64,000 nucleotides of DNA. It comes from Thermoplasmata archaeon. GTDB lineage: Archaea > Thermoplasmatota > E2 > DHVEG-1. The DNA lies in NCBI GenBank assembly GCA_014894395.1, contig JADBLO010000094.1:346-64345 (forward strand), read 5' to 3'. This document shows, in pieces, positions 13,010-49,305 of the stretch (the first letter of the stretch is position 1; every line of letters starts with the position of its first letter). Below the pieces are notes generated by a model that saw only the letters and a program-made list of their open reading frames with translations, did no database searches and was not told where the DNA came from. A program made the position numbers and the translations under genes.

Positions 13010-14098
13010 TCATACATTTTTTTCCATAAATTCAACTATTTCCTTTAACTGATTAAAGTCTACATGAACTCCTTCTTTTTGTATGTTTTGAGCCTCTTCC
13101 ATTATTGGCTTCCAACTATGATTTATACGTGCTAAATGTATTTTTTGTTTTAACTTTTCAGGAACGAACTGCATTATTTGGTCACGTAAGGTTGCCACTG
13201 AAAAAAGAAGGCGCCTATTTTTACAGTAATCCAGGTATGCTTCAACAGCTAATTTAAAATCTTCTAGAACTATTTCTTTGTCGGCCCCATCAATCCTAGA
13301 TAATTCAGTTGTCATGCTCTCATAAAAAAGATTCACTTCTTTTCGATAACGAGGATCTTTTAGCCATGTGTCGAACTGTAATTTTCTGTTATGTTCTTTA
13401 AAATCTATTGGTTTATTTTCTTTGTTCCTCAGCCACATCAGATCTTCAATCACTATTGATTTTCCCTGATAGCATGTTGCTAACTCGAATATAAGTTCTT
13501 CAATGTATGGTGATGAAAATTTTTCTTTTGTGAGTATTGTCATGCTTTTTTTCCATACTTCAGAACGTTGCACTGCGTATATGGTCGAACAAACATATGG
13601 GTTCATGTGCTCAATCATTCTTTCTCTGGTTGTTCCTTCAAAACACCTATAGCCTTTCATTTCATTGTACATTGATGTTGCCATTATTCCGCTTTTTGTA
13701 GTATAAAATCCTATGCACCTTCCAATACATGCTACAATGTCTTTGTTATTTTTCAAATATTCCATACATTTTTCAAGTGAACTTGGAATAAAAAACTCAT
13801 CATCGCACAACATTGCTGTGTATGCTGTATCTATCAATTCCAATGATTTTCTTATCCGGTCATGGAGGTATTTTGGAATATGATAATAATGCACATTATC
13901 CCCAAGGCCTTTGAGGCCCTCAGTGTTTATTGGTGTACTCGTTCCGTCCAATACATATAGTGTCACTGGTGAATCAGACCAAAAATGCATCTGTCTTAGT
14001 GCATAGTGTTGACGATTGTATGTTGGCACAACAAGTGTAAGTTCCGAAAGATTTGGCATTTCGTTCCAGTCAATTTTAATCATTTCCTGCCTGCTCAT
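13010..14098 (-). CDS. Glycosyltransferase, GT2-like.
   Basis: N-terminal LTLVVPTYNRQHY (GT2 VVPTYN motif), followed by LCDDE. 362 aa. Confidence 0.6.
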   Translation of the reverse strand: MSRQEMIKIDWNEMPNLSELTLVVPTYNRQHYALRQMHFWSDSPVTLYVLDGTSTPINTEGLKGLGDNVHYYHIPKYLHDRIRKSLELIDTAYTAMLCDDEFFIPSSLEKCMEYLKNNKDIVACIGRCIGFYTTKSGIMATSMYNEMKGYRCFEGTTRERMIEHMNPYVCSTIYAVQRSEVWKKSMTILTKEKFSSPYIEELIFELATCYQGKSIVIEDLMWLRNKENKPIDFKEHNRKLQFDTWLKDPRYRKEVNLFYESMTTELSRIDGADKEIVLEDFKLAVEAYLDYCKNRRLLFSVATLRDQIMQFVPEKLKQKIHLARINHSWKPIMEEAQNIQKEGVHVDFNQLKEIVEFMEKNV

Positions 14099-14115: not shown

Positions 14116-14877
14116 TTATTTCGTCTTTTTTAGATATCCATCTGGTGCAACTGTAATTAATAATTTGTTTTCTATATTTTTATCAATTTCGAATTCAGGA
14201 TGCGATTTCAAATATTCCCAAACTGCGGTTTTCGGATTATTTCCATTTCCCCAGGGCCGATCTGCAAATAAATTATCGTTCAAATCTTCAATGACAGTAT
14301 CAAATACCACACAATAACTTCCTTTTGAAACGAGTGGCCCATATGCATTCAGTTCAGCCAATACATGTGCATGCGTATGATTTGAATCCAAACAAACCAA
14401 AATATTGTTGTAGTTCTGTGCAAAATCATGAACCTGCTTGACTATGTTTTTGTCAATTGAAGATCCCTGCAGCATTTCTATTTTTTCTGATAGCGGATGT
14501 TTTTCTATCTCAACCCTGTTATGTGCTCTTATATCGATATCGATCCCGAGCACCTTGCCTCTTTTAATTGCTTTTGATGCTTCTAGCAATGTAATCATGG
14601 AAGCACTTAAGATCAGTGAACCTCCATGGGCAATACCCGTTTCAATAATGAGATCTGGCTTTACGGCCCAAATCAGTTCCTGCATTGCAATGATGTCTTG
14701 TGGATACTGAATTATCGGCCTGCCAAGCCATGAAAAATTATAGGTATACTTGGATACTGACGAAGCGTTCATGAAGTTATGGGCGCAGGATTTCATCTCT
14801 TCGTTTTGACCATTTGCATCAATTCTTTCTCTTACTTCTTTTTCAAAGTTCATGGTGATCCACCTGTATGCAATCAA
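14116..14877 (-). CDS. CmcI/cephalosporin-hydroxylase-family class I SAM-dependent methyltransferase, likely a sugar O-methyltransferase.
   Basis: LIIETGIAHGGSLIL and overall PF04989-like pattern. 253 aa. Confidence 0.75.
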   Translation of the reverse strand: MIAYRWITMNFEKEVRERIDANGQNEEMKSCAHNFMNASSVSKYTYNFSWLGRPIIQYPQDIIAMQELIWAVKPDLIIETGIAHGGSLILSASMITLLEASKAIKRGKVLGIDIDIRAHNRVEIEKHPLSEKIEMLQGSSIDKNIVKQVHDFAQNYNNILVCLDSNHTHAHVLAELNAYGPLVSKGSYCVVFDTVIEDLNDNLFADRPWGNGNNPKTAVWEYLKSHPEFEIDKNIENKLLITVAPDGYLKKTK

Positions 14878-14952
14878 ATTGGTTGTTCGATTGTACCACT
14901 TTGGAATGAAAATTGGTAATAATAACTCATGCTATACCTGATATGAGTAAAT

Positions 14953-14968
14953 ACTCATCTTTACCTTT
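14953..14968 (-). promoter_or_regulatory. Putative TATA-like box for the transcription unit starting at 14877.
   Basis: The reverse complement of cctttatatatctaaa contains atatataaag, about 80 nt upstream of the start codon, in a 122-nt intergenic gap. Confidence 0.2.
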
Positions 14969-14999
14969 ATATATCTAAATTTATCTCATTTTTATCCTG

Positions 15000-15908
15000 C
15001 TACTCTGATTGCTTCAATAATTCCGTTGTGTAGTTCCTTATTTTTTCCGGTGTCAACCCATATTTGTCAGCAAAATAATTCTTGTCTCCGACGGTTCTTT
15101 CAAACCCATCAGGAGGGGCAAGAGAATATAACTCCGTTGTATACAATTTTGATTCTACGAGAAACTGGCTCAGTATATTATAAAGTCCAGAACTGGCAAC
15201 ATGGTCCTCAACAACCAATATTTTAGGATATTGCAGGAAAACCCTAGACATTTCGTCCTTTTCAAATGGTTTAATTTTATTCATACAATAAACAGAAAAT
15301 GCACCATCTGTACCTGCAGCCTTCAGACAATTCTCCAGCATCGTCCCATGGGTTATAACCAGGAGACGGGAGCCGCGATTTTCGGTAACCATATGATTAA
15401 GACCTATTTGTTCAGAAGGGAGATCGAGACAACCTTTTCCAATCCTTACATAGGAAGGATTCTTATGCTTGAATATATCCTCAAAAACAATACGAACTGA
15501 TGCCATTGTGGAAGGGGAATAAATATTCATATAGGGAAATACTTTGATACAACCTATGTCGTCAATTACCTGATGTGTAGGACCAAGGCCGCCATTGTCA
15601 TAGCCTGTCGATGTCCCCACAAGAACTACAGGATAATTATGTAGACAGATGTCGTTTCTTATCTGTTCATAACATCTCTGAATCAGGAAATTTGAAATCG
15701 TGTAACAGACCGGACGAAATCCCACATTGCATAGTCCAGCACTTATTCCTATCATATTCTGCTCTGCAATACCGACATTAATAAACCGTTCTGGGAATTC
15801 TTTTTGGATCGGATCCACCAAACCAAGCCCCATATCGGCCACAACTAGGAAGATGGTCTTATCCTTGCACATCTGTTCAATGAGTTGTGTAAAAAATACG
15901 TTCCTCAT
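15000..15908 (-). CDS. Transketolase, C-terminal (pyrimidine-binding) subunit of a split transketolase.
   Basis: Pyr/TK-C domain motifs (GPTHQ, ISNF). The start overlaps the upstream TPP-subunit stop by 4 nt. Confidence 0.88.
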   Translation of the reverse strand: MRNVFFTQLIEQMCKDKTIFLVVADMGLGLVDPIQKEFPERFINVGIAEQNMIGISAGLCNVGFRPVCYTISNFLIQRCYEQIRNDICLHNYPVVLVGTSTGYDNGGLGPTHQVIDDIGCIKVFPYMNIYSPSTMASVRIVFEDIFKHKNPSYVRIGKGCLDLPSEQIGLNHMVTENRGSRLLVITHGTMLENCLKAAGTDGAFSVYCMNKIKPFEKDEMSRVFLQYPKILVVEDHVASSGLYNILSQFLVESKLYTTELYSLAPPDGFERTVGDKNYFADKYGLTPEKIRNYTTELLKQSE

Positions 15909-16756
15909 GTCTGCCGCCTCTTTGACAGTTCAATAGATGCTTTTTTATATTCTTCATCATTCGGTGGTCTGTAATGCCAGACATTATTATTTTCCATAAA
16001 TGAAACGCCTTTGCCTTTGATCGTATGGCAGATAATCGCGCCAGGGGTCTCTGATTCCTTCAGCCTTTGAATTGTTTGACAGATTTGTTCTTCATCATGT
16101 CCGTCAACCTCAAATGTTTTAAAACAAAAGCTTTCGAGTTTGTCTTTTAGGGAGTTAAATGAACAATAGGAATTGATGTCTTTGGTGCCGCCTAAACCAT
16201 TCATGTCTACCAGGACGCAAAGGTTATCAAGTTTCAGATGTCCTGCGAGAAGAAGTGCCTCCCAGTTAGACCCCTCATGGAGTTCTCCATCGCCGACAAT
16301 TACATATACTCTTGAATCAAGTCCTTTCGATTTCAAGCCGATTCCTATCCCAACCGCAACCGAAAGTCCATGTCCGAGAGCTCCCGTAGAGTGTTCTACA
16401 TATGGGACAAAGTGGCTCGCATGGCCACTTAGTATCGACCCGTTCTTATAGTATGTCATAAGCTCTTCATCGGATAACAGGCCTAAATGGTTTAATATAA
16501 CGTAAAGGGCTGCCGCCGAATGCCCTTTGCTGAGAATGACACGGTCTCTGTCGTCTCTTTTATCCTTTATTTTTTTGATATCAATACCCCTATACACTGC
16601 AGATAGAATTTCAATAACCGAAAAAGAGGATCCAATATGAGACGCCTTGGATTGGTAAATAATATCCAATACTCGTTTTCGTAGTAGATCTGTCTTCTGC
16701 GTCTCTTTTCGGCTGTCAATACTACTTCGTCCCATTGTTAATTCCCTTTCCTTCAT
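15905..16756 (-). CDS. Transketolase, N-terminal thiamine-diphosphate-binding subunit.
   Basis: GDGELHEGSNWEALLLAGHLKLDNLCVLVDMNG TPP-binding motif, plus HSTGALGHGLS. Confidence 0.88.
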   Translation of the reverse strand: MKERELTMGRSSIDSRKETQKTDLLRKRVLDIIYQSKASHIGSSFSVIEILSAVYRGIDIKKIKDKRDDRDRVILSKGHSAAALYVILNHLGLLSDEELMTYYKNGSILSGHASHFVPYVEHSTGALGHGLSVAVGIGIGLKSKGLDSRVYVIVGDGELHEGSNWEALLLAGHLKLDNLCVLVDMNGLGGTKDINSYCSFNSLKDKLESFCFKTFEVDGHDEEQICQTIQRLKESETPGAIICHTIKGKGVSFMENNNVWHYRPPNDEEYKKASIELSKRRQT

Positions 16757-17544
16757 CCTGTAATATCTTTCTTCTTCCTGGAGGGATGGTCGATTTTTAC
16801 AATACCAGTTCTGGCCTTAAGCCCCGATTTACCGTTATCCGTAATGATTAAAGGATAAAGTTTCTTCTCAACACAGAAACTGTAAAAGCCATTGGACCAA
16901 TCGAGGTCGTCAGCCATAATTAGGGCATTTGAATTCAATTTTTCCCATACTAACGTCATTTCTTGTTTTATAAAAGCAAACGAATGGTCACTATCATGGT
17001 TATACAGATCAATCTTCTCATTCAACCTTGGAATCTCTTCAAGACTATTTCCCCGTATGAGTGTCCACCGCTCTTTCTGGGCAGGATGAACGATAAAACC
17101 AATATCCAGTCCTTGGGGTATGTCCTCGGAATCACCCACTAAATAATGCCTCGACATTTTGTCATCCGAATTTCTTGGAAGATCAATGGAAATCAACTTA
17201 CCAAAATGATTCCTTCTTAATGCATTCAGAATAAAACAGGTTGTTCCTCCATAAAACACTCCGGTCTCAAGGCAGACGGAAGGTCGATTGAGTCTGACGA
17301 GAATGTATAAGATAATCCTTTGTATCGCAAACCAATCTACTGATTCCAGGTTGCTATGTCTGAATATACCCTTTTGATACGTGAGCCTTACCTTTTGAAT
17401 CTGTTCATTTATCTCGTCCAAAAACTGTTGATCTCCCAATAATTCCTTGTACAGCTGATCTATCTTTGTAAACTCTACATTGAGATAATCAGCTAAGAGT
17501 TCGAGACTCATTGTATTAAGCGAACGGCATAATGCTGGGTCCAT
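16753..17544 (-). CDS. Class I SAM-dependent O-methyltransferase (TylF/Methyltransf_24-like). The probable true start is Met12 at 17511.
   Basis: SVCLETGVFYGGTTCFI and LIMADDLDW motifs. An ATG at 17509-17511 sits 4 nt after the stop of the small upstream ORF. Confidence 0.7.
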   Translation of the reverse strand: MDPALCRSLNTMSLELLADYLNVEFTKIDQLYKELLGDQQFLDEINEQIQKVRLTYQKGIFRHSNLESVDWFAIQRIILYILVRLNRPSVCLETGVFYGGTTCFILNALRRNHFGKLISIDLPRNSDDKMSRHYLVGDSEDIPQGLDIGFIVHPAQKERWTLIRGNSLEEIPRLNEKIDLYNHDSDHSFAFIKQEMTLVWEKLNSNALIMADDLDWSNGFYSFCVEKKLYPLIITDNGKSGLKARTGIVKIDHPSRKKKDITG

Positions 17545-17719
17545 TTTTTGTTTCCCTCTTTACAAGAAATTCTCTTCTTTCCCTTAATCTCTCTTCGTTG
17601 CCTATGCGAACGCCCTTCGCTGTCCACACAGCCTGGTTAAAAGGGCCGTAAGCATTTACTATCTCAATCTGGTCGGCTGAGATTCTCTCATCCACTTTGC
17701 TAGAGAGGTGTACCATCAT
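17516..17719 (-). CDS. Small hypothetical protein (67 aa).
   Basis: ATGATGA overlap with the stop of the upstream epimerase gene, giving translational-coupling geometry. The ORF ends 4 nt before the Met12 start of the downstream methyltransferase. No recognisable domain. Confidence 0.3.
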   Translation of the reverse strand: MMVHLSSKVDERISADQIEIVNAYGPFNQAVWTAKGVRIGNEERLRERREFLVKRETKNGPSIMPFA

Positions 17720-18627
17720 TGGTCACCCAGAAAAGCATTCAAGTCACGTAAGCCCTGCTCGAGGTTGATTTTCGGCCCCCAATGGAGAAGCTCTTTTGCT
17801 TTCTTGTTTGAGACTGGTCTGATGCTTATGTTATTAGGAGTTGTCTCAACAATCTCGGGATTCTTATTCAAGATTTTCTTTGAAGTCTCAATTACTTCAC
17901 CGAGTCTTAAAAGCCTGTTGCCCTCAAGGTTTATTATATTGAAGCCAGGCAAGCCAATTGACTTAACAATGCCCTCAACGATGTCAGAAACATTGATAAA
18001 GCACCTTCCGGTCCGAAGGGATCCGACAGTAATCTTGTCCTGCGTCCTGACCTGGTTGAAAAGAGACTCAACAGCTGACCAATTGTCTTTCCTGCTGCCA
18101 TAGATTATGCCGAATCTCAGGATAGCCACAGGGCAGAAGCCGTGCTTTGAATTCTGGCGGAGATTTCCCTCTGAGACTAGCTTTGAAAGGGCATACTCAG
18201 AGGTATGGTTGGCGATATTGATAATTGAATCCTCTGTCTTTTCCTCCCCTTCAACAAAATTGTCATAAACCCATTCTGTTGATGCGAAAATAAACTGTTT
18301 GACATTCCTCTGCTCTGCTGCTTGCATCAAGTTCAGCGTTCCCATCACATTGATAGTGAAACATTCATATGCCTTGTTCTTGCAATCAGAGTCCCTTGAC
18401 AAGGCTGCGAGGTGGATGATTGCATCAGCGCCGTCTGGAATGAGCTCTGCAATCTCCGGCTTGTTTATGTCAGCTGAGAAATATTCTGACCGCTGTACCT
18501 TTGGCAAATCCACACAGACAGTCTTGTAGCCAAGCGAATGACATTTTTTCACAAGTTCCTTGCCAACAAATCCTTCTGAGCCGGTTATGAAAATTGTTTT
18601 CGGACGATGTGCCTTGTTTTCTTGCAT
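17716..18627 (-). CDS. NAD-dependent sugar epimerase/dehydratase/reductase (extended SDR).
   Basis: TIFITGSEGFVGKELV Rossmann motif plus a YxxxK region. The first ATG gives MQENKAH; the track start at 18639 is a TTG extension. Confidence 0.8.
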   Translation of the reverse strand: MQENKAHRPKTIFITGSEGFVGKELVKKCHSLGYKTVCVDLPKVQRSEYFSADINKPEIAELIPDGADAIIHLAALSRDSDCKNKAYECFTINVMGTLNLMQAAEQRNVKQFIFASTEWVYDNFVEGEEKTEDSIINIANHTSEYALSKLVSEGNLRQNSKHGFCPVAILRFGIIYGSRKDNWSAVESLFNQVRTQDKITVGSLRTGRCFINVSDIVEGIVKSIGLPGFNIINLEGNRLLRLGEVIETSKKILNKNPEIVETTPNNISIRPVSNKKAKELLHWGPKINLEQGLRDLNAFLGDQ

Positions 18628-18808
18628 TTTTATCACCAACAGCTGAATGTATTTTATTGGCCTTTAATCACATTTCATCTTCTGTCAACTTTCTGAGGTT
18701 TCCTTTGGGATTTGATGTAACCATGAGACGCGTATTTTTTTCATCAACCCTGAATTCAAGAGTGATTTTTATGAAATCCTTAATGGCGTCAAGTGTATTG
18801 GCATGACC

Positions 18809-19714
18809 TTAATGTATTTTTCTGAAGTATTCAATAGTTTTTTCAATCCCTTTTTCAATGCTAAACTTTGGTTTCCATCCTACATCTGCTTTAATCCTTG
18901 AAATATCTGCCCAGAAATCCATGAGGGGAGAATCCGCAGGTTTTCCACTTTCTGAAACATACCTTTCGTTTAAATTATATAAGCGATAGACCGTGTTAAT
19001 GATATGTAGAATCTCCGTGGAATACCCTGAACCAATATTGTATACTTCTCCCTTCATCTCCTTAGTGATTAGCAGGGAAATCGCTTCGGCCACATCTTCG
19101 ACGTATACGAAATCATTTCGAGAATGAGGGGTTTTAATGTTCGGATGATCACCTGAACGAATAGAGGTAATAATATGCGGGATAAGAGAATGACCTTTCT
19201 GCTCTGGCCCATATACGTAAAACAGTCGTGTCCAGATAAATTCCATGTGATTTTCCCGAGCGATTTCTCGCCCCATTAAATGTAATGCATGTTTTGCCGC
19301 GGTGAACGCGCTCGATGGCTTTACCACTGAATCTTCATCAAGTTTGCCAGATTTCTGTCCGTATTCCCAACAACTTCCAGTACAAAGAACACGTTTGCAA
19401 CCAATCTCAGCTAACATTACAATCAAATTCAAACCATAGATCAGATTTTTCATGCTGGTTTTATAATCATAGTTTGGAATGTCCCCCCATGCCATGTGAA
19501 TAGTTACATCAGGTTGAAATTTTTTAACCACATCTTTCCACGCATCGATATTTGAAAGATCTCCCACGAATGCCGTTATTTTTTTATGATAATCAGTAAA
19601 AGACGGTTTTTCAGATTCTTGAATCAATAAAAGTAAATCGTGTTCTTCCTCCATCAACTTTCTTACTACATGAGTACCAATGAAACCTGTTCCTCCAGTA
19701 ACGAAAATTCTCAT
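18809..19714 (-). CDS. NAD-dependent sugar epimerase/reductase (extended SDR).
   Basis: MRIFVTGGTGFIGTHVV. 301 aa. Overlaps the upstream cupin-gene stop by 4 nt. Confidence 0.8.
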   Translation of the reverse strand: MRIFVTGGTGFIGTHVVRKLMEEEHDLLLLIQESEKPSFTDYHKKITAFVGDLSNIDAWKDVVKKFQPDVTIHMAWGDIPNYDYKTSMKNLIYGLNLIVMLAEIGCKRVLCTGSCWEYGQKSGKLDEDSVVKPSSAFTAAKHALHLMGREIARENHMEFIWTRLFYVYGPEQKGHSLIPHIITSIRSGDHPNIKTPHSRNDFVYVEDVAEAISLLITKEMKGEVYNIGSGYSTEILHIINTVYRLYNLNERYVSESGKPADSPLMDFWADISRIKADVGWKPKFSIEKGIEKTIEYFRKIH

Positions 19715-20253
19715 TCTATTTCCAAACCCCTAAATTTTTCGACAAACTCTTTGAAGCTTTGCGCTTTCGAATCCTTCTCCGATAAGAGGGGATTAGACAC
19801 CGGCCATTTTATTCCAAGATCAGAGTCATTCCATTTAATAGTACCCTGACTTGTAGGATTATAGTAATTACTCATTTTGTACAGTAACGTGCAATCATTG
19901 GTTAAGGTGCACATGCCAAGTGCAAGACCTTTTGGAACGTACAGCATGTTTTTATTCTGTTCAGAGAGAATCGCGCTATCCCAGCAACCAAACATTGAGG
20001 AGTTTTTCCGTATATCAACAAACACCATAAAAATCTCCCCATGGACTGCTCTCACGAGTTTTGTTTCCGTGTTCGGTGGAAATTGAAAATGAAGCCCTCG
20101 TATCGTCCCTTTTTGCTTTGAATAGGAATGATTCTCTTGAACCCACCGCTGTTCTAAACCATGGTCTTGAAATAACGTATCATCATAGGTTCTCATAAAA
20201 AATCCCCTATGATCTTCGTGAACCTCTAATTCGATTTCAAAGACTCCCTTCAT
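19711..20253 (-). CDS. NDP-4-keto-6-deoxy-sugar 3,5-epimerase (RmlC-like cupin).
   Basis: MKGVFEIELEVHEDHRGFFMRTY is the typical RmlC N-terminus. The probable start is the Met at 20253, preceded by AAAGAAAG; the track start at 20289 is an extension. Confidence 0.85.
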   Translation of the reverse strand: MKGVFEIELEVHEDHRGFFMRTYDDTLFQDHGLEQRWVQENHSYSKQKGTIRGLHFQFPPNTETKLVRAVHGEIFMVFVDIRKNSSMFGCWDSAILSEQNKNMLYVPKGLALGMCTLTNDCTLLYKMSNYYNPTSQGTIKWNDSDLGIKWPVSNPLLSEKDSKAQSFKEFVEKFRGLEIE

Positions 20254-21511
20254 TTTTCTTTCTTTTATCTGCATTGTAGTCACAAACACTCATCATTGCT
20301 GGGGTATTCGGTAATGGGATGATACAGGTACCCGTATAATTAAACCTCTTTTTTAAAATCGTGATGATTTCGTCTGTGAAATTCCACGCTAAAATAAATA
20401 CACACTTCGGGTTTTTACTCATGACCTGTTCTGGGCTGTCAATAGGGATATGGGTTCCTGCGGTGTACCGTTTATGTTTCAAGGGATTCTGATCAGCGAT
20501 GAGAGAAATATATTGCGTGTCAATCCCACAATAATTCAGTAAGGTGGAACTTCGTGCTGATGCGCCATACCCAACAAGGGGTCCACTTGCATCAGTTACT
20601 TCTTTCATCATCTTTAATAATTGTTCACGATGAACATGAACTCGCCGTGAAAAATCTTGCCAGCTACTCAAATCATTAAGTTTCTTTTTCTGTTCGGTAT
20701 CTCGATATGATTGAACGGTGTGCGCCTCTGCTTCCTTGTTTTTTTTCACATATAAAATCAATGATCCACCACTAATCGGACTCTCATTGATATCAACCAC
20801 AAATAGTCCGAATCGATGCAACAACGCTTCAACACTTTTCAAGGTAAAATAACATAAATGCTCATGATAGATCGAATCATAATGCAACTCATCATAGATT
20901 CTTCCTGCATAGTGGACCTCCAACGCAAGTAAACCATCTGTTTCTAAAACTCGGGAAAGCCCGTCTACAAAATCATGAAGATGCGCCACGTGCGGAAGAA
21001 CATTCCGTGCGATCACCACTTTCGCCGGACCATGCTGCTTCAGTATTTCCTCTGCGACTTGAACTCCAAAAAAGCTGCATTTCGTTGGAATACCCTGTGC
21101 AATAGCTATCTTGACAATGTTCTCTGCAGGATCAACTCCAAGAACCAGATACTTGTTTTTCACAAAGGGCTGTAGAAATGTCCCGTCGTTACTCGCAACT
21201 TCGAGGACATATCCTTTATTCAAATCGTGAACGCGAGTGACAATTTCTCGATAAAACATCTGTGCATGGTCTTGAGCTGTATGAGACGTACCGGTAACCC
21301 AAACGTAATTTGAAAATAACTTCTTTGGATCGACCGTGTAATTTAACTGAACCAGATTACATTCTGGACACCAACTTAATGAAAGAGGATACAACGGCTC
21401 TTTTTCGGTTGCAGTTTTCAGTAGAGAATTGGCTGGGGGTTGGTTCCCAAGGTCGAGAAATTCGACGATATGTTTGTTTTCACAGACTCGGCAACATTTG
21501 ATGTGTGTCAT
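20237..21511 (-). CDS. NDP-hexose C-methyltransferase (TylCIII-like) with an N-terminal zinc ribbon.
   Basis: CRVCENKHIVEFLDLGNQPPANSLL, where the C4 ribbon is completed by CPECN, plus a class I methyltransferase core. 424 aa. Confidence 0.8.
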   Translation of the reverse strand: MTHIKCCRVCENKHIVEFLDLGNQPPANSLLKTATEKEPLYPLSLSWCPECNLVQLNYTVDPKKLFSNYVWVTGTSHTAQDHAQMFYREIVTRVHDLNKGYVLEVASNDGTFLQPFVKNKYLVLGVDPAENIVKIAIAQGIPTKCSFFGVQVAEEILKQHGPAKVVIARNVLPHVAHLHDFVDGLSRVLETDGLLALEVHYAGRIYDELHYDSIYHEHLCYFTLKSVEALLHRFGLFVVDINESPISGGSLILYVKKNKEAEAHTVQSYRDTEQKKKLNDLSSWQDFSRRVHVHREQLLKMMKEVTDASGPLVGYGASARSSTLLNYCGIDTQYISLIADQNPLKHKRYTAGTHIPIDSPEQVMSKNPKCVFILAWNFTDEIITILKKRFNYTGTCIIPLPNTPAMMSVCDYNADKRKKNEGSL

Positions 21512-21540: not shown

Positions 21541-23367
21541 TTAAGTGAAATCGGATTCGTTCATCGTATAAATTGCATCAGCATAATCTTTTGTTTTTTT
21601 AATGATAGGTACTTCGTCTATTTCTCGAGACTTAATGATTTTTTCGGTCTGTTTTGTAGAGCATTTCTTGTAGTCAATATAAAACTCTTTGAGTCGCTGA
21701 ATTCGCACCGTGTCGTTGATATCGACGTAAATATGGTAATCAGAGAGGTTTCGGACGTCTTCGATATCTAATGAGACAATTCCATCGATGATACCGATGC
21801 CATGCTCTTCGATATATAATGGGGTAGAATTTTTCTTTTGGGTGACCTGTCGTGTTTGTGAGTCATACACCGGAGGGTAGATTTTCTCCCCGTGTTTAAG
21901 GCGGGTGATTGTCTCCGATATTTTTGTATATTGATACCGCTCACGCACTGTTTCATTTCCTTTTCGTTCGTTGAGTCCAAGCAGCCAATTATCAAGAGGA
22001 ATAATAGTACTTGGGATTTTTTTCCCTTTGAGATCTTCTTGTATTTTTTTTGCAAGGATTGTTTTCCCGGACCTGCTGCACCCTGCGATTGAGACGATAA
22101 ATCTTGTTTTGTCTGACTTCATATAGGTTTCAAGTAAGGATTCAAATAAAGTATAATACGTATCAATTCGTTTGTTGGCTGTTGATCCAAGGAGTGAATG
22201 AACCACCTGTAGCAGATTTTTCTCTGGTGTCACTAGTATGGTCTTGACACCAGCAGCATTCCCTGCTTGCAGATCACGTTCATCATCACCGATAAAAACT
22301 GTTTTTGAAAGATCTAATTGATGATCCCGGGCAGCTTGGAAGAACATTCCGGGTTTTGGTTTCCTACATTCACAGTTTTCATCCCACCCATGAGGACAAT
22401 AGTAGATGCCATCGATCTTCGCCTTATTGTTGTGTAATTCTCTCTGAAGATGTTCATGGATACTGCGGAGATCCGACTCAGTCATTACACCCCGAGCAAT
22501 CCCTGCTTGGTTCGTGATAAGATAGACGTGATATCCATTTTTTGTGAGAAGTTCCAATGCTTCTATGGCCCCTGGTAGGAATTCGAATTCATTCCACTTC
22601 TTCACATACTCTGCTTTAGGTGGTTTTTTATTAATGACGCCATCCCTATCCAAGAAAATCACTTTCTTTGGCTGGAGGAATCTTTCTGTCAGTGGCAAAC
22701 GCTCTAATGACCCAATGCTATAATATCTATAATCCACCAAATATCCGGATAACTGATGATTTTCGATGAGTTTTGGAATGATGACATTCTGAAAAGAAAA
22801 ATTCTCACCAGGCATCCATTCTGTTATCTTCTTACTGAGAATGAAAAAACCGACATCTACCCCGTTGAGATCTTTCGCTTGCCTTGTTCGATCGTAGGTT
22901 ATGACATATCCTTTCTCATCCACAAACACATTATTTTTCGTTATTTTGTCTTTGTTCGTATATATCGTAACGCTTGCCATAGTCTTTTGTTTTTCATGGA
23001 ATTCCACAAGTTTCTTTAGATCCAACGGGAGATAATTATCGCAATACGTCAAGAGGAAAAACTCCTGGAGGAGCTCCTCTGCTTTTTTTATTCGTGTTCC
23101 GGTCTCATCTGAAAGATCACTTATCGAATATTTTATTTTCACTCCGAATCTTGAACCATCTCCGAAATACTCCGTGATTTTTTCAGGAAGATACCCGAGC
23201 AAGAGCACGATTTCACAGATTCCGTTTTCTTTCAACAGGCCTATGAGATATTCGAGAAATGGTTTCCCATTCATTAAAATCATTGGCTTTGGTACTGTAT
23301 CGGTCAGCGGTTGTAGTCTTGTTCCTCGTCCTCCAGCAAGGATTACAGCTTGTTTAACTGAAAGCAT
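21541..23367 (-). CDS. Tri-domain fusion: heptose-1-P nucleotidyltransferase (HddC-like), D,D-heptose-1,7-bisphosphate phosphatase (GmhB-like HAD), and a uridine-kinase/phosphoribulokinase-family P-loop kinase domain.
   Basis: N-terminus MLSVKQAVILAGGRGTRLQPLTD is the NTP-transferase domain. The middle has VIFLDRDGVIN...CECRKPKPGMF...FIGDDERD, the GmhB HAD motifs with a Cys/zinc loop. The C-terminus has IVSIAGCSRSGKTILAKKI...IPLDNW...KHGEKIYPPVYD...GIIDGIVSL...YHIYVDINDTVRIQRLKEF...KDYADAIY, which aligns motif-for-motif with Udk/PRK. Confidence 0.8.
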   Translation of the reverse strand: MLSVKQAVILAGGRGTRLQPLTDTVPKPMILMNGKPFLEYLIGLLKENGICEIVLLLGYLPEKITEYFGDGSRFGVKIKYSISDLSDETGTRIKKAEELLQEFFLLTYCDNYLPLDLKKLVEFHEKQKTMASVTIYTNKDKITKNNVFVDEKGYVITYDRTRQAKDLNGVDVGFFILSKKITEWMPGENFSFQNVIIPKLIENHQLSGYLVDYRYYSIGSLERLPLTERFLQPKKVIFLDRDGVINKKPPKAEYVKKWNEFEFLPGAIEALELLTKNGYHVYLITNQAGIARGVMTESDLRSIHEHLQRELHNNKAKIDGIYYCPHGWDENCECRKPKPGMFFQAARDHQLDLSKTVFIGDDERDLQAGNAAGVKTILVTPEKNLLQVVHSLLGSTANKRIDTYYTLFESLLETYMKSDKTRFIVSIAGCSRSGKTILAKKIQEDLKGKKIPSTIIPLDNWLLGLNERKGNETVRERYQYTKISETITRLKHGEKIYPPVYDSQTRQVTQKKNSTPLYIEEHGIGIIDGIVSLDIEDVRNLSDYHIYVDINDTVRIQRLKEFYIDYKKCSTKQTEKIIKSREIDEVPIIKKTKDYADAIYTMNESDFT

Positions 23368-23373
23368 GTGTTC

Positions 23374-24423
23374 TCACGTCATCCAGTACATCTTCTTGTT
23401 TACCTTTTTTTCATTCATCAGGTATTTCAATTGCAATGTGCGATTGCATTGTCTTCCCCGAAACATAGCTTCCGTGAAATGTATTTCATCAAAAAAAGAA
23501 ACAATCTCATTTCCGCCCCGAAAGAGATCCCACTCTGGTTTGTAATACTCTTTTAATACGGAAAGTATCTTTACAAACGAAACTCGGTATGTTCTGGCAT
23601 CTGATCCATGTTCGCCCGTATAAATTATAGTTGATCCCTTCACAACATTTTGTGCAGCTTCTGCGAGTTGTTTTACTGTAAAATTACCATCATTAATACC
23701 AACATTAAATGATTCATTTGAGATTAGTTTTTCTGGTGCTTCAATACCTGCAATAAATGCATTTGATACATCCCTGATATGGACGACGGGTCGCCATGGT
23801 GACCCATCGCTTTTTACTTCTATTTTCCCTGTTGTATAAGCACTAGCGATAAAGTTATTGTAAACGATGTCACATCGCAACCTTGGGCTTACCCCGAAAA
23901 CGGTCGATGGGCGAAAACATACAACGGTAAAATCATCATCCCCTAGCTTCTTCAATTCACATTCCGCATCCCATTTCGTTTTTGCGTACATCGTAATAGG
24001 ATTCTTTTCACTTGTATCCTCATCTAGTTCTTCATCTGTCTTTGCCACCCCGTACATACTTTGAGATGAAGAATATACAAAACGCTTAATTCCAATTTCT
24101 TTTGCCAATGTAGCCAATCTGATCGTTGCAACATAATTGATATCATATGTTAATTTTTGATTGAGTTCGCCCAATGGATCATTAGACAGAGCTGCAAGAT
24201 GAATGATGGCATCAATACCCTTCAGATCTGCTTTTGAGACCTTTCGGATATCTTTGTTAATTTGCTGTATATTAGTATCTAACTTCTTCAATTCGCAACC
24301 TTTGTAATAATCCGTGTCAAAACCTTTTACGGTATAGCCTCGATCTAAAAGGAGTTTTGTCAATATGCATCCGATATATCCTCTGTTCCCAGTTACAAGA
24401 ATATTCACAATATCCCTCCACAT
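23374..24423 (-). CDS. NAD-dependent sugar epimerase/dehydratase (extended SDR), a candidate GDP-heptose-modifying enzyme.
   Basis: NILVTGNRGYIGCIL Rossmann motif, SSSQSMYG, YAKTK. 349 aa. Confidence 0.8.
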   Translation of the reverse strand: MWRDIVNILVTGNRGYIGCILTKLLLDRGYTVKGFDTDYYKGCELKKLDTNIQQINKDIRKVSKADLKGIDAIIHLAALSNDPLGELNQKLTYDINYVATIRLATLAKEIGIKRFVYSSSQSMYGVAKTDEELDEDTSEKNPITMYAKTKWDAECELKKLGDDDFTVVCFRPSTVFGVSPRLRCDIVYNNFIASAYTTGKIEVKSDGSPWRPVVHIRDVSNAFIAGIEAPEKLISNESFNVGINDGNFTVKQLAEAAQNVVKGSTIIYTGEHGSDARTYRVSFVKILSVLKEYYKPEWDLFRGGNEIVSFFDEIHFTEAMFRGRQCNRTLQLKYLMNEKKVNKKMYWMT

Positions 24424-24428
24424 ACATT

Positions 24429-25022
24429 TTATTTCTTTTGTCTTTGTTGCTCTTCTCTGATTAATGATGTTAAAAGATGCTCAAGAAGCAGGTGAATGTC
24501 CTCTACGCGCTGCATATAATTACTCGGTGCATGGATGTTCTCTTGGGCGCATCTGAGTAATGCGCCTCCATCATATCCAGAAATACCTATAGTTATCCCT
24601 CTGTTTTCGTTTGCATATTTTATGGCTTTAACCACATTCGCCGAATTCCCACTGCCACTAATACCGATTATGACATCGCCAGGTTCCATTAAATTCTTCA
24701 ATTGTTCGACAAAAATATCATCATAGCTTGCATCATTTGCCCATGCCAGCATGGTTGGAATATTATCAGTGAGTGCAATCGCTTTAAACCTGGGAAATCC
24801 ATCGACAATGGTTCCTTTTGAAAGATCACTTACAAAATGAGATGCTGTTGAGGCACTACCCCCATTTCCCATTATAAAAATCGTTTTTCGTTCAGTTCGT
24901 GCTTTCAACAAAATAGTCGCAATAGTGTCCATTTTTTTTACAAGATCTCGCTCCATTACATTTAATATTGTGTGTATTTCCTTTAAATAATCCTTCGTAA
25001 ATTTTTCCCTGAAGTTATCCAT
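24429..25022 (-). CDS. gmhA: Sedoheptulose-7-phosphate isomerase (phosphoheptose isomerase, SIS domain).
   Basis: IFIMGNGGSASTASHFVSDLSK SIS motif. 197 aa. Confidence 0.85.
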   Translation of the reverse strand: MDNFREKFTKDYLKEIHTILNVMERDLVKKMDTIATILLKARTERKTIFIMGNGGSASTASHFVSDLSKGTIVDGFPRFKAIALTDNIPTMLAWANDASYDDIFVEQLKNLMEPGDVIIGISGSGNSANVVKAIKYANENRGITIGISGYDGGALLRCAQENIHAPSNYMQRVEDIHLLLEHLLTSLIREEQQRQKK

Positions 25023-25024
25023 AC

Positions 25025-26005
25025 TTAATCACTCACGTAGATAATTCTGCTTCCAGATGCCTCGAATGCAAATGTTACATCTTTCAAATCATGAAGTGCT
25101 TTTCTTACAAAATCTTGCTTTTCTTTTTCACAGTAGAACAACAAAAAACCGCCTCCTCCAGAACCCAAAATTTTCCCCCCGATTGCTCCAGCTTTTCGGG
25201 CTTTTTCATAATATGAATTGATAATAGGATTTGAGATTTTACTTGCGAGTTGTTGTTTGTACATCCATCCTTGATGAAGTATTTCTCCGAATCTCGTGAG
25301 ATCGTTGTTTCTTAATGCCTCTTGAAGTTCGCGAACCTGCTCAACCATTTTATCATAAATATGGAGTTTGTCTTCTGTTTTTTTAATTTGTTCCGTTAAA
25401 ATATCTCCTGATGTGATCTGTTTTCCCATATAAAACATAAGTAAATTTTCTTTTAATTTTTCTTTAATTTCTTTCTTGAAAATAATCGGATTCACTATGA
25501 CACTTTCATCTGCATTAAATTGTATATAGTTAAATCCCCCATATGCTGCTGCATATTGATCCTGTTTTCCGATTGGGTGTCCTAGTATGTCGATTTCAAT
25601 TCTACATGATTCCTGAGCCAATGTTTCAGCTGAGACATGTTCCCCTTTAAATGCATGAAGTGCGTGTAACGTTCCTACAACAATACTACTCGAAGCACCT
25701 AATCCGGATCCCTCCTGCGCTGGTAGAAGATCTGACATGTAAACGATTTCCAGTCCCTTCGTAATACCAGTCATTTTTAATGCATCCCGAACAAGATTAT
25801 GCTCGATCTCATCGACAGTTTTAACATATTCTATTTTTGAGTAGGCTACACGAATATTATCTGTGAATCTTTTATTCACGGTGATATATACATATTTGTT
25901 AATTGCAGTACTGATCACCGCACCGTGTCCATGTTGATAATATGCACGAATATCTGATCCACCGCCTACAAAACTCATTCGTAATGGTGTTCTTGAGATA
26001 ATCAT
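25025..26005 (-). CDS. hddA: GHMP-family sugar kinase, HddA-like D-glycero-alpha-D-manno-heptose-7-phosphate kinase.
   Basis: ISRTPLRMSFVGGGSDI N-terminus, the GHMP ATP motif PAQEGSGLGASSS, and a GGGGFLLF C-terminal motif. Confidence 0.8.
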   Translation of the reverse strand: MIISRTPLRMSFVGGGSDIRAYYQHGHGAVISTAINKYVYITVNKRFTDNIRVAYSKIEYVKTVDEIEHNLVRDALKMTGITKGLEIVYMSDLLPAQEGSGLGASSSIVVGTLHALHAFKGEHVSAETLAQESCRIEIDILGHPIGKQDQYAAAYGGFNYIQFNADESVIVNPIIFKKEIKEKLKENLLMFYMGKQITSGDILTEQIKKTEDKLHIYDKMVEQVRELQEALRNNDLTRFGEILHQGWMYKQQLASKISNPIINSYYEKARKAGAIGGKILGSGGGGFLLFYCEKEKQDFVRKALHDLKDVTFAFEASGSRIIYVSD

Positions 26006-28498: not shown

Positions 28499-28617
28499 CC
28501 TTTTTCTGTTTGTTTTCTCGAGAGGGGATACCTTCAGCCTATGATCAGATGGTGCCTGTGTCGGTTTTGTTGTAAGGACATATCTTATATGTCTTCAGCT
28601 AGGGAGACCACAGGACA

Positions 28618-29763: not shown

Positions 29764-30197
29764 TTGATCACCTTGTATAATTCTTCAATTTCTTTTTTTG
29801 TTAGTTTTCTTATAGCTTTAGCTGGAACGCCGTAGGCTACAGTATTATCCGGTATATCAGTAATTACAAAGCTGAATGCACCGATAATCGCGTTTTCTCC
29901 AATGGTAACATCAGGCATGACTACGGAATGTGTTCCCACACGGCAATTCTTTTTCAGGGTGATGTTCCCTTCTTTATTGTCGATTGTGGAAATCGAATAA
30001 AGGGAGCAGTGAGACCCGATTTGAACGTAGTCTTCCAGGGTAACACCTTTTTTTGCGTTAATGTAGGTAAAGGCACCGATGTCCACACGTTTACCTAGTT
30101 TTAGGTTCTTATGATGCTGGCACATCCAATTCCATTTTGTCGTATCGTTTTTATCGAAGGTGGGTTGTTTCCATTTTGTAAATCGTTTCTTGGTCAT
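29760..30197 (-). CDS. Hexapeptide-repeat (LbH) N-acetyltransferase (PglD/NeuD/LegH-like).
   Basis: Hexapeptide repeats IGSHCSL...VGTHSVV...IGENAIIGAFSFV. 145 aa. Confidence 0.75.
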   Translation of the reverse strand: MTKKRFTKWKQPTFDKNDTTKWNWMCQHHKNLKLGKRVDIGAFTYINAKKGVTLEDYVQIGSHCSLYSISTIDNKEGNITLKKNCRVGTHSVVMPDVTIGENAIIGAFSFVITDIPDNTVAYGVPAKAIRKLTKKEIEELYKVIK

Positions 30198-30208
30198 ATG
30201 CTTTCAAC

Positions 30209-32409: not shown

Positions 32410-32415
32410 GTTGAG

Positions 32416-35010: not shown

Positions 35011-35031
35011 GATTGTTCACGAGTATCCGTA

Positions 35032-49077: not shown

Positions 49078-49305
49078 GATAGTCTCCTACGCAACTCGCA
49101 TTTGGTAATACATTTGTTGATTTTATATCTGTTGACCAGTTCTTTATTGTTTTTGGATTGAGATAATTGTTATACGATGAGAGATAGAGTGTAGCGATGG
49201 GAATTGGATATCGATACGAATATATTATTAACAATCGTTAAGATTATATAGGGGATTGATGGTTATTTTTATTAGGAGTCTTAAGAATTTACCGAGGGTT
49301 ATCCG

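What the first reader, a model, noticed from the sequence alone, without database searches (positions are those of the whole stretch)
14116..17544. Split transketolase embedded between two sugar O-methyltransferases inside the glycan cluster
A TPP-binding half (15905..16756) and a C-terminal half (15000..15908) overlap by 4 nt. They are flanked by a CmcI-family and a TylF-like methyltransferase, in the same strand run as a GmhA/HddA/GmhB/HddC heptose pathway. Transketolase produces sedoheptulose-7-phosphate, the GmhA substrate. Many methanogens lack a conventional pentose-phosphate transketolase. A dedicated split transketolase could therefore supply S7P for heptose glycan synthesis. Alternatively it could act in two-carbon branch transfer on a keto-sugar, as split TK pairs do in some antibiotic-sugar pathways.
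Basis: inference. Interest (0 to 1): 0.55.

Follow-up and report, generated by a model that had tools for sequence, protein, structure and literature searches.

The report
Transketolase-like pair in heptose-sugar cassette
A two-gene look-alike of the enzyme transketolase sits inside a gene set, shared by an archaeon and many unrelated bacteria, that builds a heavily decorated seven-carbon surface sugar; it most likely adds a two-carbon branch to that sugar and does not run ordinary sugar-phosphate metabolism.

Summary
Minus-strand ORFs 16756..15905 (TK N-half) and 15908..15000 (TK C-half) overlap by ATGA. They lie between two methyltransferase genes in a 13-gene same-strand run with a GDP-heptose pathway. 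The source is a Thermoplasmata MAG, and nothing shows it is a methanogen.

The same cassette recurs in at least eight other loci, seven of them from named bacterial lineages. It comprises heptose activation, a probable Cj1427-like C4 dehydrogenase, a sugar 3-C-methyltransferase, an RmlC-like epimerase, SDRs, a COMT-fold methyltransferase, the TK pair and a CmcI-type methyltransferase. More distant relatives sit in operons of NTP-transferase, NDP-hexose 4,6-dehydratase, TK pair and SDR, with no heptose genes.

The N-half keeps every ThDP and donor residue. The C-half lacks the canonical acceptor/phosphate residues: His461→Ser, Asp469→Leu, Arg520→Lys (E. coli numbering). This holds in 144 of 144 best family representatives for His461. 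The family holds at least 641 clusters at 50% identity.

Best reading: a ThDP-dependent C2 (ketol) transferase acting on a GDP-keto-heptose, playing the part YerE plays in yersiniose synthesis. Such split TKs have so far only been proposed, in Streptomyces nucleoside antibiotics. No biochemistry exists, and the regiochemistry and donor are inferred.

The parts
25025..26005 (-). HddA-like GHMP kinase (heptose-7-P 1-kinase); first gene of the same-strand run
   Evidence: Pfam GHMP_kinases_N/C. NCBIfam best hit is HddA, 2.1e-44, below the equivalog cut-off.
24429..25022 (-). GmhA-like sedoheptulose-7-P isomerase
   Evidence: SIS_2/SIS. NCBIfam phosphoheptose isomerase 1.6e-33, below cut-off.
23374..24423 (-). 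SDR1: probable GDP-heptose C4 dehydrogenase that creates the 4-keto group
   Evidence: Best PDB relative is 6vo6, 1.5e-34. My recollection, not verified by a tool, is that 6vo6 is C. jejuni Cj1427. The Cj1427 function is from PMC10680097. The motif SSSQSMYG lacks the dehydratase acid; YAKTK is present.
21541..23367 (-). Fusion of HddC-like nucleotidyltransferase, GmhB phosphatase and a PRK/uridine-kinase-like domain
   Evidence: Pfam NTP_transferase, HAD and PRK. NCBIfam GmhB 1.7e-54, above cut-off; HddC 6.5e-28.
20237..21511 (-). NDP-sugar C-methyltransferase (TylC3/TcaB9/MtmC type)
   Evidence: Pfam Methyltransf_13/14. PDB: MtmC 4rv9 3e-66, KijD1, TcaB9.
19711..20289 (-). RmlC-like 3,5-epimerase (likely start 20253)
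   Evidence: PF00908 1.8e-63; TIGR01221 5.4e-58, above cut-off. The gene call is in L001.
18809..19714 (-). SDR2: extended SDR lacking the catalytic Tyr (FTAAK); homologue of the SDR that accompanies TK pairs in the wider family
17716..18639 (-). SDR3: extended SDR with intact YxxxK, next to or one gene from the TK/MT24 genes in nearly all cassette loci; candidate reductase of the new branch
   Evidence: Adjacency in L002, L004, L006, L008, L009, L071, L073.
16753..17544 (-). MT24: COMT-fold, probably metal-dependent O-methyltransferase, tightly linked to the TK pair
   Evidence: PF13578 7e-17. AF2 pLDDT 89.4. Foldseek: COMT and cation-dependent OMTs.
15905..16756 (-). TK-like N-half (ThDP/PP domain); alternative start at 16735
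15000..15908 (-). TK-like C-half (Pyr plus C domains) with a non-canonical acceptor site (S100, L108, K158)
14116..14877 (-). CmcI/rhamnosyl-O-methyltransferase-family methyltransferase (likely start 14853)
   Evidence: PF04989 7e-98. PDB CmcI only 2.6e-4.
13010..14098 (-). GT2-type glycosyltransferase ending the run; presumed user of the finished sugar
   Evidence: PF00535 4.8e-06; TIGR04440 3.8e-36, above cut-off.

Best explanation
The two ORFs encode the two halves of a ThDP-dependent, transketolase-fold carboligase. It belongs to a large, uncharacterised, glycan-cluster-associated family and does not work on free sugar phosphates.

Proposed pathway; every step is inferred:
1. [quoted passage not shown]
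2. SDR1 (probably Cj1427-like) oxidises C4.
3. The TylC3/TcaB9-type enzyme C-methylates next to the ketone, and the RmlC-like enzyme epimerises.
4. The TK pair forms a dihydroxyethyl-ThDP carbanion from a ketol donor (a ketose phosphate or hydroxypyruvate). It adds this to the sugar ketone, most likely C4, giving a tertiary alcohol with a hydroxyacetyl branch.
5. SDR3 reduces the branch carbonyl.
6. The two flanking methyltransferases O-methylate the product.
7. The GT2 transfers it to the surface glycan.

The logic matches yersiniose synthesis, with the TK pair in place of YerE and an SDR in place of YerF.
For: Shown:
- (a) The cassette is conserved across domains with the TK pair among tailoring genes: L002, L004, L006, L008, L009, L071, L072, L073.
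- (b) In the wider family, 37 of 56 loci have NDP-sugar genes within 5 kb. Typical operons are NTP-transferase, NDP-hexose 4,6-dehydratase (sometimes a DegT-type enzyme), TK-N, TK-C and SDR. Examples are Bradyrhizobium L054, Hyphomicrobium L050, Paenibacillus L034 and Methanosarcinales L015. In such operons the only available electrophile is the 4- or 3-keto group of the NDP-sugar.
- (c) The N-half keeps H26, H66, H100, D155, E160 and N185 in 66 of 66 members and H261 in 65 of 66. The C-half keeps R358, E411 and H473. It lacks H461 (Ser or Gly) and D469 (mostly Leu), and has Lys or Arg at 520. The E. coli TK and the C. hydrogenoformans split TK (deposited as a split-chain transketolase) have H, D, R.
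- (d) In an NJ tree without bootstrap support, the cassette clade is monophyletic and nested in the glycan-associated family, apart from canonical TK and DXS.
- (e) Scores are far below the NCBIfam transketolase equivalog cut-offs: 235.9 vs 488 and 94.9 vs 488.
- (f) A COMT-fold O-methyltransferase is tightly linked to the pair.

Established knowledge:
- In yeast and E. coli TK, R358, S385, H461 and R520 bind the substrate phosphate, and D469 binds the acceptor C2-OH.
- H100 and H473 contact the C1-OH of the dihydroxyethyl unit.
- ThDP-dependent branching of NDP-4-keto sugars is proven for YerE and E1-type enzymes and proposed for split TKs (PMC12247030).
Against: - There is no biochemical or glycan-structure evidence for any member of this family.
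- The acceptor carbon, the donor and the order of steps are inferred.
- A C-methyl group and a C2 branch on neighbouring carbons would give two adjacent quaternary centres, which I believe is uncommon (my own recollection).
- R358 and a basic residue at 520 are retained, so a phosphate-bearing substrate is still possible. That could be the donor, the GDP moiety, or a sugar phosphate.
- 19 of 56 wider-family loci showed no NDP-sugar gene with my queries. The three of these that I inspected had other glycan genes.
- I could not show that this genome has a separate housekeeping TK.
- The Streptomyces split TKs could not be compared because no sequences were available.
Confidence: 0.55

Rival explanations
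1. Same acceptor logic but DXS-like chemistry. The pair decarboxylates pyruvate and transfers a hydroxyethyl (acetyl) unit to the GDP-keto-heptose. After reduction this gives a 1-hydroxyethyl branch, as in yersiniose.
For: After the split TK, the C-half is next closest to DXS among solved structures: 2o1s 4e-23, against human TK 3.6e-12. NCBIfam ranks dxs first for the C-half. All proven sugar-branching ThDP enzymes use 2-oxo acids (PMC12247030).
Against: The N-half scores much better as Transketolase_N (2.4e-35) than as DXP_synthase_N (1.3e-11). It keeps His100, which contacts the donor C1-OH in TK and aligns with Phe in E. coli DXS.
Confidence: 0.15
2. The pair acts elsewhere on the heptose, not at C4. 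For example it extends an oxidised side chain (a C6 ketone or C7 aldehyde made by SDR3) to a higher-carbon sugar, or it cleaves a ketol.
For: There are three SDRs in the cassette, and SDR3 is next to or one gene from the TK/MT24 genes. Canonical TK acceptors are aldehydes. Heptose 6-epimerase-type SDRs oxidise C6 (established knowledge).
Against: Wider-family operons use 6-deoxy-4-keto-hexose precursors that have no such side chain. SDR2 lacks the catalytic Tyr. This fits a pathway with no C4 reduction, as expected if C4 is consumed by C-C bond formation.
Confidence: 0.12
3. One reading: a bona fide split transketolase, dedicated or housekeeping, that makes sedoheptulose-7-P for GmhA in an archaeon lacking another TK.
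For: It lies in the same strand run as GmhA, HddA, GmhB and HddC. All ThDP and donor residues are intact. R358 is kept. The archaeon must get S7P from somewhere, and no other TK lies in the 64-kb window.
Against: H461, D469 and R520 are replaced. The cassette also occurs in Pseudomonadota, Planctomycetota and Sericytochromatia MAGs, which I expect (not checked) to carry a conventional TK. The wider family includes Bradyrhizobium, Hyphomicrobium and Paenibacillus. The wider family occurs without any heptose genes. In L006 the halves are split by three tailoring genes, ~8 kb from gmhA and on the opposite strand. Scores are below the TK equivalog cut-offs.
Confidence: 0.08

Closest known systems
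Canonical transketolase (EC 2.2.1.1), including the split-gene TK of Carboxydothermus hydrogenoformans (PDB 6YAK/6YAJ)
   Same: Same fold and the same two-gene split. It is the best PDB hit for both halves, 1.9e-52 and 3.2e-30. All ThDP/Mg and donor-ketol residues are conserved.
   Different: The acceptor/phosphate residues His461, Asp469 and Arg520 are Ser, Leu and Lys here (Ser385 could not be aligned). Scores are below the NCBIfam TK cut-offs. The genomic context is NDP-sugar tailoring, not pentose-phosphate metabolism.
Split-gene TKs proposed for hydroxyacetyl branching in miharamycin and amipurimycin biosynthesis, plus 13 Streptomyces BGC homologues (PMC12247030, section 2.3)
   Same: A split TK is placed after an oxidoreductase that makes a keto-sugar. 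The proposed reaction, C2 ketol transfer to a ketone, is the one inferred here.
   Different: Those are in actinomycete nucleoside-antibiotic clusters and are not validated in vitro. This one is in a GDP-heptose surface-glycan cassette of an archaeon and many bacterial phyla. Sequence relatedness could not be tested because no sequences were available.
YerE/YerF of CDP-yersiniose A biosynthesis (and ErwE, MMAR_2332)
   Same: Same pathway logic: nucleotidyltransferase, then 4-keto formation, then ThDP-dependent C-C bond formation at the ketone, then SDR reduction of the branch. Both act in cell-surface glycans.
   Different: YerE belongs to the decarboxylase (acetolactate-synthase-like) ThDP superfamily and uses 2-oxo acids. 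It is not homologous at family level to this TK-fold heterodimer.
E1 alpha/beta-type (alpha-KADH2) sugar-branching enzymes (aldgarose AlmDI/DII, kibdelomycin KbDH-alpha/beta)
   Same: Two-subunit ThDP enzymes of the TK/E1 structural class that add C2 units to NDP-keto sugars.
   Different: They use pyruvate as donor and have E1_dh/Transket_pyr architecture. They are known from secondary-metabolite clusters. Here the N-half is Transketolase_N with TK-type His100.
Campylobacter jejuni GDP-heptose modification pathway (Cj1427 C4-dehydrogenase, Cj1430 epimerase, Cj1428 reductase; PMC10680097)
   Same: GDP-heptose activation genes, a probably Cj1427-like SDR and an RmlC-like epimerase.
   Different: The C. 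jejuni pathways contain no C-methyltransferase and no ThDP enzyme; PMC10680097 never mentions transketolase.
1-Deoxy-D-xylulose-5-phosphate synthase (DXS)
   Same: Related Pyr and C-terminal domains; DXS is the second-best structural family for the C-half.
   Different: Scores are far below the dxs cut-offs: 106.5 vs 465.95. The protein is split. The N-half is TK-like. DXS Asp427 and Arg478 equivalents are not kept.

Membership tests
Transketolase/DXS/E1 ThDP superfamily (fold level) | PP (ThDP-diphosphate) domain with the GDG...N metal motif, Pyr domain with the cofactor-activating Glu, and a TK C-terminal domain | tested here: met
   Pfam PF00456, PF02779 and PF02780 above gathering scores. 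GDG at 155-157, N186 and E49 (= Ec E411) are present.
Canonical transketolase EC 2.2.1.1 | Catalytic and donor histidines (Ec H26, H66, H100, H261, H473) | tested here: met
   H26, H66 and H100 are conserved in 66 of 66 N-halves and H261 in 65 of 66. H473 is conserved in all C-halves.
Canonical transketolase EC 2.2.1.1 | Sugar-phosphate acceptor site: R358, S385, H461, R520 (phosphate) and D469 (acceptor C2-OH) | tested here: not met
   R358 is kept, but H461->S100, D469->L108 and R520->K158. Ser385 fell in an alignment gap, also for the canonical split TK, so it is undetermined. Of the 144 best family representatives, 0 have His at 461 and 4 have Asp at 469.
Canonical transketolase EC 2.2.1.1 | Score above NCBIfam equivalog cut-offs | tested here: not met
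   N-half 235.9 bits vs 488 (NF004559). C-half 94.9 vs 488. A half-length protein cannot reach a full-length cut-off, so this test is weak on its own.
Canonical transketolase EC 2.2.1.1 | Xu5P/R5P to S7P/G3P activity | not testable with these tools
   Needs an enzyme assay.
MJ0679/MJ0681-type archaeal housekeeping split TK | Orthology (phylogenetic grouping) with the archaeal housekeeping pair, and being the only TK in the genome | not tested
The nearest relatives found are bacterial glycan-cluster proteins, 55-70% identical for the N-half.
DXS | Single about 620-aa chain, score above the dxs cut-off, GAP-binding Arg420/Arg478/Asp427 | tested here: not met
   Split genes. 106.5 vs 465.95 bits. 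Leu and Lys at the Asp427 and Arg478 columns.
ThDP-dependent NDP-keto-sugar branching enzymes (functional class: YerE, alpha-KADH2, proposed split TKs) | Encoded with a nucleotidyltransferase and an enzyme that generates a keto-sugar nucleotide | tested here: met
   Window: HddC fusion plus the probably Cj1427-like SDR1. Wider family: NTP-transferase plus 4,6-dehydratase.
ThDP-dependent NDP-keto-sugar branching enzymes (functional class: YerE, alpha-KADH2, proposed split TKs) | Partner reductase or other tailoring enzyme for the new branch | tested here: met
   SDR3 and MT24 are next to or one gene from the pair in cassette loci. An SDR adjoins the pair in many wider-family loci.
ThDP-dependent NDP-keto-sugar branching enzymes (functional class: YerE, alpha-KADH2, proposed split TKs) | Demonstrated C-C bond formation on a ketone acceptor, or a known branched sugar product | not testable with these tools
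   No glycan structure or assay exists for any cassette-bearing organism. No paper was found.

The most novel reading that the evidence does not exclude
A horizontally mobile cassette of about 12 genes is shared by Thermoplasmata archaea and at least six bacterial phyla. It builds a so-far undescribed, hyper-modified higher-carbon sugar: a heptose carrying a C-methyl group, a TK-installed C2 branch and O-methyl groups. The TK-like pair would be the first representative of a third large class of NDP-sugar-branching ThDP enzymes, with at least 640 clusters at 50% identity. This class would operate in primary cell-surface glycans and not only in Streptomyces antibiotics.
Probability: 0.45. Interest if true: 0.72.

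Novelty: new variant of a known kind. Interest (0 to 1): 0.6.

Why it matters
ThDP-dependent branching of nucleotide sugars is proven only for YerE-type and E1-type enzymes. TK-type branching is an untested proposal confined to two nucleoside antibiotics and 13 Streptomyces clusters (PMC12247030).

This locus and its relatives point to a large, phylogenetically broad family of transketolase-fold enzymes with a remodelled acceptor site, working in surface-glycan pathways of archaea, CPR bacteria, Planctomycetota, Pseudomonadota and others.

Three consequences follow:
- It predicts new branched higher-carbon sugars on microbial surfaces.
- It offers soluble candidates for the long-sought TK that accepts ketones and makes alpha-functionalised tertiary alcohols.
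- It warns that hundreds of 'transketolase' annotations in polysaccharide loci should not be counted as pentose-phosphate-pathway genes in metabolic reconstructions, including those of archaea where the presence of a TK is diagnostic.

Tried and rejected
- **Housekeeping or S7P-supplying TK:** rejected as the main reading on active-site and context grounds.
- **DXS:** rejected.
- **Glycolyl-ACP or lipoyl-delivering TK, as I recall from the quinocarcin/naphthyridinomycin pathways:** rejected because no ACP or E2 gene is in the window run or in the Pfam-annotated gene calls of the cassette loci fetched with them.
- **'TylF-like' for the upstream methyltransferase:** no sequence similarity to a TylF-family protein. 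It is a COMT-fold Methyltransf_24 protein.
- **Literature:** ten searches found no paper linking a transketolase to heptose or NDP-sugar glycan pathways. Krug et al. 2024, Romo et al. 2019 and the Cj1427 structure paper are not held. The identity 6VO6 = Cj1427 therefore rests on my memory.
- **GTDB genome scan with the C-half:** it did not return the window's own genome, so a second TK in this MAG could not be looked for.
- **tRNA scan:** found nothing.
- **Sigma-70 promoter/terminator scan:** not run, because the host is an archaeon. Co-transcription is inferred only from spacing: overlaps or gaps of 29 nt or less, except three gaps of 122 to 171 nt.
- **Assigning SDR1, SDR2 and SDR3 to specific steps from motifs:** inconclusive.

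Full report
**1. The observation**

ORF listing and domain scans confirm two adjacent minus-strand genes.
- 16756..15905 (283 aa) is a Transketolase_N/ThDP-binding half (PF00456, 2.4e-35).
- 15908..15000 (302 aa) is a Transket_pyr plus Transketolase_C half (8.9e-25 and 8.2e-08).
- The two share the sequence ATGA, read directly.
- The preceding methyltransferase gene (17544..16753) overlaps the N-half in the same way.
- NCBI's call for the identical protein starts at Met8 (16735). A purine-rich stretch lies upstream of that start.

The downstream gene 14877..14116 is a strong CmcI/rhamnosyl-O-methyltransferase family member (7e-98).

All thirteen genes from 26005 to 13010 are on the minus strand:
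- HddA-like kinase
- GmhA
- SDR1
- an HddC-GmhB-PRK fusion
- a sugar C-methyltransferase
- an RmlC-like epimerase
- SDR2
- SDR3
- the Methyltransf_24 methyltransferase (MT24)
- TK-N
- TK-C
- the CmcI-type methyltransferase
- a GT2

They overlap or lie 29 nt or less apart, except for three gaps of 122 to 171 nt.

The identical proteins are deposited as 'MAG... [Thermoplasmata archaeon]' on a 74,951-bp contig. The rest of the window is a surface-glycan island. It holds nonulosonic-acid genes, GlmS/GlmU-like genes, a flippase, UDP-glucose dehydrogenase and DUF2341/LamG surface proteins. It has no methanogenesis or pentose-phosphate genes and no second transketolase.

**2. The pair is part of a cassette conserved across domains**

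I looked up contigs that encode close homologues of the N-half (57-70% identical). These carry the tailoring core of the gene set, and most also carry heptose-activation genes:
- a JGI metagenome contig (L002)
- Candidatus Magnetomoraceae gMMP-1 (L004)
- a Sericytochromatia MAG (L006)
- an unassigned Logan contig (L071)
- a Proteobacteria MAG (L072), with nearly the window's gene order plus a Wzm/Wzt exporter
- a contig carrying the same protein as a Liptonbacteria (CPR) record (L073)

The scan of GTDB species representatives added an Omnitrophota locus (L008) and a Planctomycetota locus (L009).

The recurring core is SDR1, the C-methyltransferase, SDR3 and the TK pair, usually with SDR2. MT24, the CmcI-type methyltransferase and the RmlC-like gene are usually present too.

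In L006 the two TK halves are separated by SDR3, a TylF-type methyltransferase and MT24. They lie on the opposite strand from the heptose-activation genes. The pair therefore travels with the tailoring genes, not with gmhA.

MT24 homologues are 45-89% identical. Twenty-eight entries in the top-120 lists for MT24 and for TK-N share the same 'longest contig' length, which I use as a proxy for lying on the same contig.

**3. A much larger family shows the same context without heptose genes**

The GTDB scan returned 60 loci. Beyond the cassette clade, the C-half relatives are 25-38% identical.

I extracted ORFs and ran phmmer with the window proteins and with neighbours from three loci.
- 37 of 56 of these loci have an NDP-sugar gene within 5 kb of the pair: 19 have a 4,6-dehydratase, 17 an SDR, 15 a DegT-type enzyme and 10 a nucleotidyltransferase.
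- Pfam scans show compact operons of NTP-transferase, NDP-hexose 4,6-dehydratase, TK-N, TK-C and SDR in Bradyrhizobium sp. F1.4.3 and Hyphomicrobium sp. D-2, and NTP-transferase and 4,6-dehydratase genes close to the pair in Paenibacillus puldeungensis and a Methanosarcinales MAG.
- Three loci that gave no hit with my queries still carry GT9, GT1, radical-SAM, methyltransferase and SDR genes.

This is the gene logic of yersiniose synthesis (DdhA, DdhB, DdhC, then YerE, then YerF), with the TK pair in YerE's place.

An exhaustive phmmer search of 1.84 billion representatives found 641 clusters at E<=1e-30. That is a better score than the canonical split TK would reach.

**4. The active site says TK-type donor and non-TK acceptor**

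I aligned all family members with E. coli TktA, E. coli Dxs and the C. hydrogenoformans split TK. The E. coli numbering was verified.

*N-half.* H26, H66, H100, G114, L116, D155, E160 and N185 are kept in 66 of 66 members, and H261 in 65 of 66. In the window protein these are H40, H79, H112, D156, E161, N186 and H261.

*C-half.* R358 (R2), D381 (D25), E411 (E49), F437 (F74) and H473 (H112) are kept. Three positions differ:
- His461 is Ser100 in the cassette clade and Gly in the wider family.
- Asp469 is Leu108.
- Arg520 is Lys158, and Lys or Arg elsewhere in the family.

 These substitutions are anchored by the flanking GPTHQ motif.

Of the 144 best full-length representatives, none has His at 461 and four have Asp at 469. 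E. coli TK and the C. hydrogenoformans split TK have His, Asp and Arg.

From established TK structural work:
- R358, S385, H461 and R520 hold the substrate phosphate.
- D469 binds the acceptor 2-hydroxyl.
- H100 and H473 contact the hydroxymethyl of the dihydroxyethyl-ThDP intermediate.

The pattern therefore fits a TK-like C2 ketol donor half-reaction combined with a different acceptor. Retention of His100, which aligns with Phe in Dxs, mildly favours a glycolaldehyde unit over a pyruvate-derived one.

An NJ tree without bootstraps places the cassette clade as a monophyletic group inside the glycan-associated family. TK and Dxs fall outside.

**5. The neighbours**
- **SDR1.** Its best solved relative is 6vo6 (1.5e-34). 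[quoted passage not shown] Its function is described in PMC10680097. The PDB code assignment is from memory. SDR1 lacks the acidic residue typical of 4,6-dehydratases.
- **C-methyltransferase.** It is clearly of the MtmC/KijD1/TcaB9 sugar 3-C-methyltransferase type (3e-66). As I recall, those enzymes methylate next to a 4-keto group.
- **SDR2.** In the cassette clade it has Phe or Leu in place of the catalytic Tyr. The homologous SDR next to TK pairs in the wider family keeps the Tyr.
- **SDR3.** It keeps YxxxK and is next to or one gene from the TK/MT24 genes in nearly all cassette loci.
- **MT24.** It models confidently (pLDDT 89.4) as a COMT-like, cation-dependent O-methyltransferase. Its structural neighbours include the mycobacterial enzyme MeT1.

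A pathway that consumes the C4 ketone by C-C bond formation needs no C4 reductase. That would fit an inactivated SDR2 and an active SDR3 that reduces the branch carbonyl. This is inference only.

**6. Interpretation**

The best-supported reading (confidence 0.55) is a ThDP-dependent C2-ketol transferase that branches a GDP-keto-heptose. Reduction and O-methylation follow.

Rivals:
- The same reaction with a pyruvate-derived unit (0.15).
- Action on the heptose side chain or another carbonyl (0.12).

Against the S7P rival stand the remodelled acceptor site, the heptose-free relatives and the gene placement. In its favour, I could not check whether the MAG has another TK, and the archaeon must obtain S7P somehow.

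**7. Comparison with what is known**

A 2025 review (PMC12247030) states the following:
- TKs have only been proposed, and not shown in vitro, to transfer a hydroxyacetyl group to a keto sugar in miharamycin and amipurimycin biosynthesis.
- The 13 further candidates found by BGC mining are all split-gene TKs from Streptomycetes.

YerE-type and E1 alpha/beta-type enzymes are the proven sugar branchers. My ten searches found no paper connecting a transketolase with heptose or NDP-sugar glycan pathways. The comprehensive C. jejuni heptose paper has no ThDP enzyme.

The locus is therefore a new variant of a known or proposed kind: TK-type branching in a GDP-heptose surface-glycan cassette, in an archaeon, within a large and previously unremarked family.

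**8. Limits**
- Nothing here is biochemical.
- The tree has no support values.
- Context counts depend on my query set.
- The contig-length match is a proxy.
- MJ0679/MJ0681 and the Streptomyces TKs could not be included.
- Co-transcription is inferred from spacing only.

Noticed in passing
window 18809-19714 (-); orthologues L002 3782-4669, L004 5659-6582, L006 15290-16234, L008 3086-4249: The extended SDR 'SDR2' has Phe or Leu where the catalytic Tyr of YxxxK should be (AFTAAK, LFASFK, IFPAVK, YFSDAK, VLGAAK). Homologous SDRs beside TK pairs in the wider family keep the Tyr. It may be a non-redox or inactivated paralogue.
   Followed up: partly
window 21541-23367 (-), residues ~410-608; L004 2177-2797: The HddC nucleotidyltransferase and GmhB phosphatase are fused to a PRK/uridine-kinase-like P-loop kinase domain. 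In Magnetomoraceae the same domain is a separate adjacent gene, and other cassette loci lack it. Its role in a GDP-heptose pathway is unexplained.
   Followed up: no
L002 8952-9878; L073 14347-15267: Some cassette loci carry an additional E1_dh-like (ThDP alpha-subunit-type) gene near the TK pair. This hints at a second ThDP-dependent step in those versions.
   Followed up: no
L004 13131-17639; L072 12132-16337 and 16443-18678: Bacterial versions of the cassette add radical-SAM enzymes (MiaB-like, SPASM, B12-binding) and extra methyltransferases. L072 also has a Wzm/Wzt ABC exporter. These suggest even heavier decoration and O-antigen-type export.
   Followed up: no
window 26295-36093 (-): A nonulosonic-acid block sits directly upstream of the heptose cassette. 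It has a PseB/Polysacc_synt_2 dehydratase, a DegT aminotransferase, a 381-aa protein with no Pfam hit (28618-29763), an acetyltransferase, a NeuC-like 2-epimerase, two NeuB paralogues (31357-32409 and 35032-36093), a CMP-transferase and oxidoreductases.
   Followed up: partly
window 1969-4314, 4340-6688, 60286-63801 (-); 51508-53994 (-): Three large DUF2341 proteins, two of which also carry a Laminin_G_3 domain, and a C25-family peptidase flank the glycan island. They are probably secreted or surface proteins and may be glycosylation targets.
   Followed up: no
window ~17516-17719 (-): A 67-aa ORF was called by the source assembly's gene prediction in the 171-nt gap between SDR3 and MT24. In the Magnetomoraceae cassette (L004) SDR3 and MT24 abut directly, leaving no room for it. 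It may be spurious.
   Followed up: no
L030 9183-10930 and 16638-18514: A Microgenomates (CPR) contig carries two non-canonical TK-like pairs within 9 kb. One N-half has Asn in place of the His261 equivalent.
   Followed up: no
window 48617-49234 (-): A 205-aa ORF matches only part of the NAD-dependent epimerase/dehydratase domain (profile positions 11-150 of 240). It may be a truncated SDR or a gene remnant.
   Followed up: no
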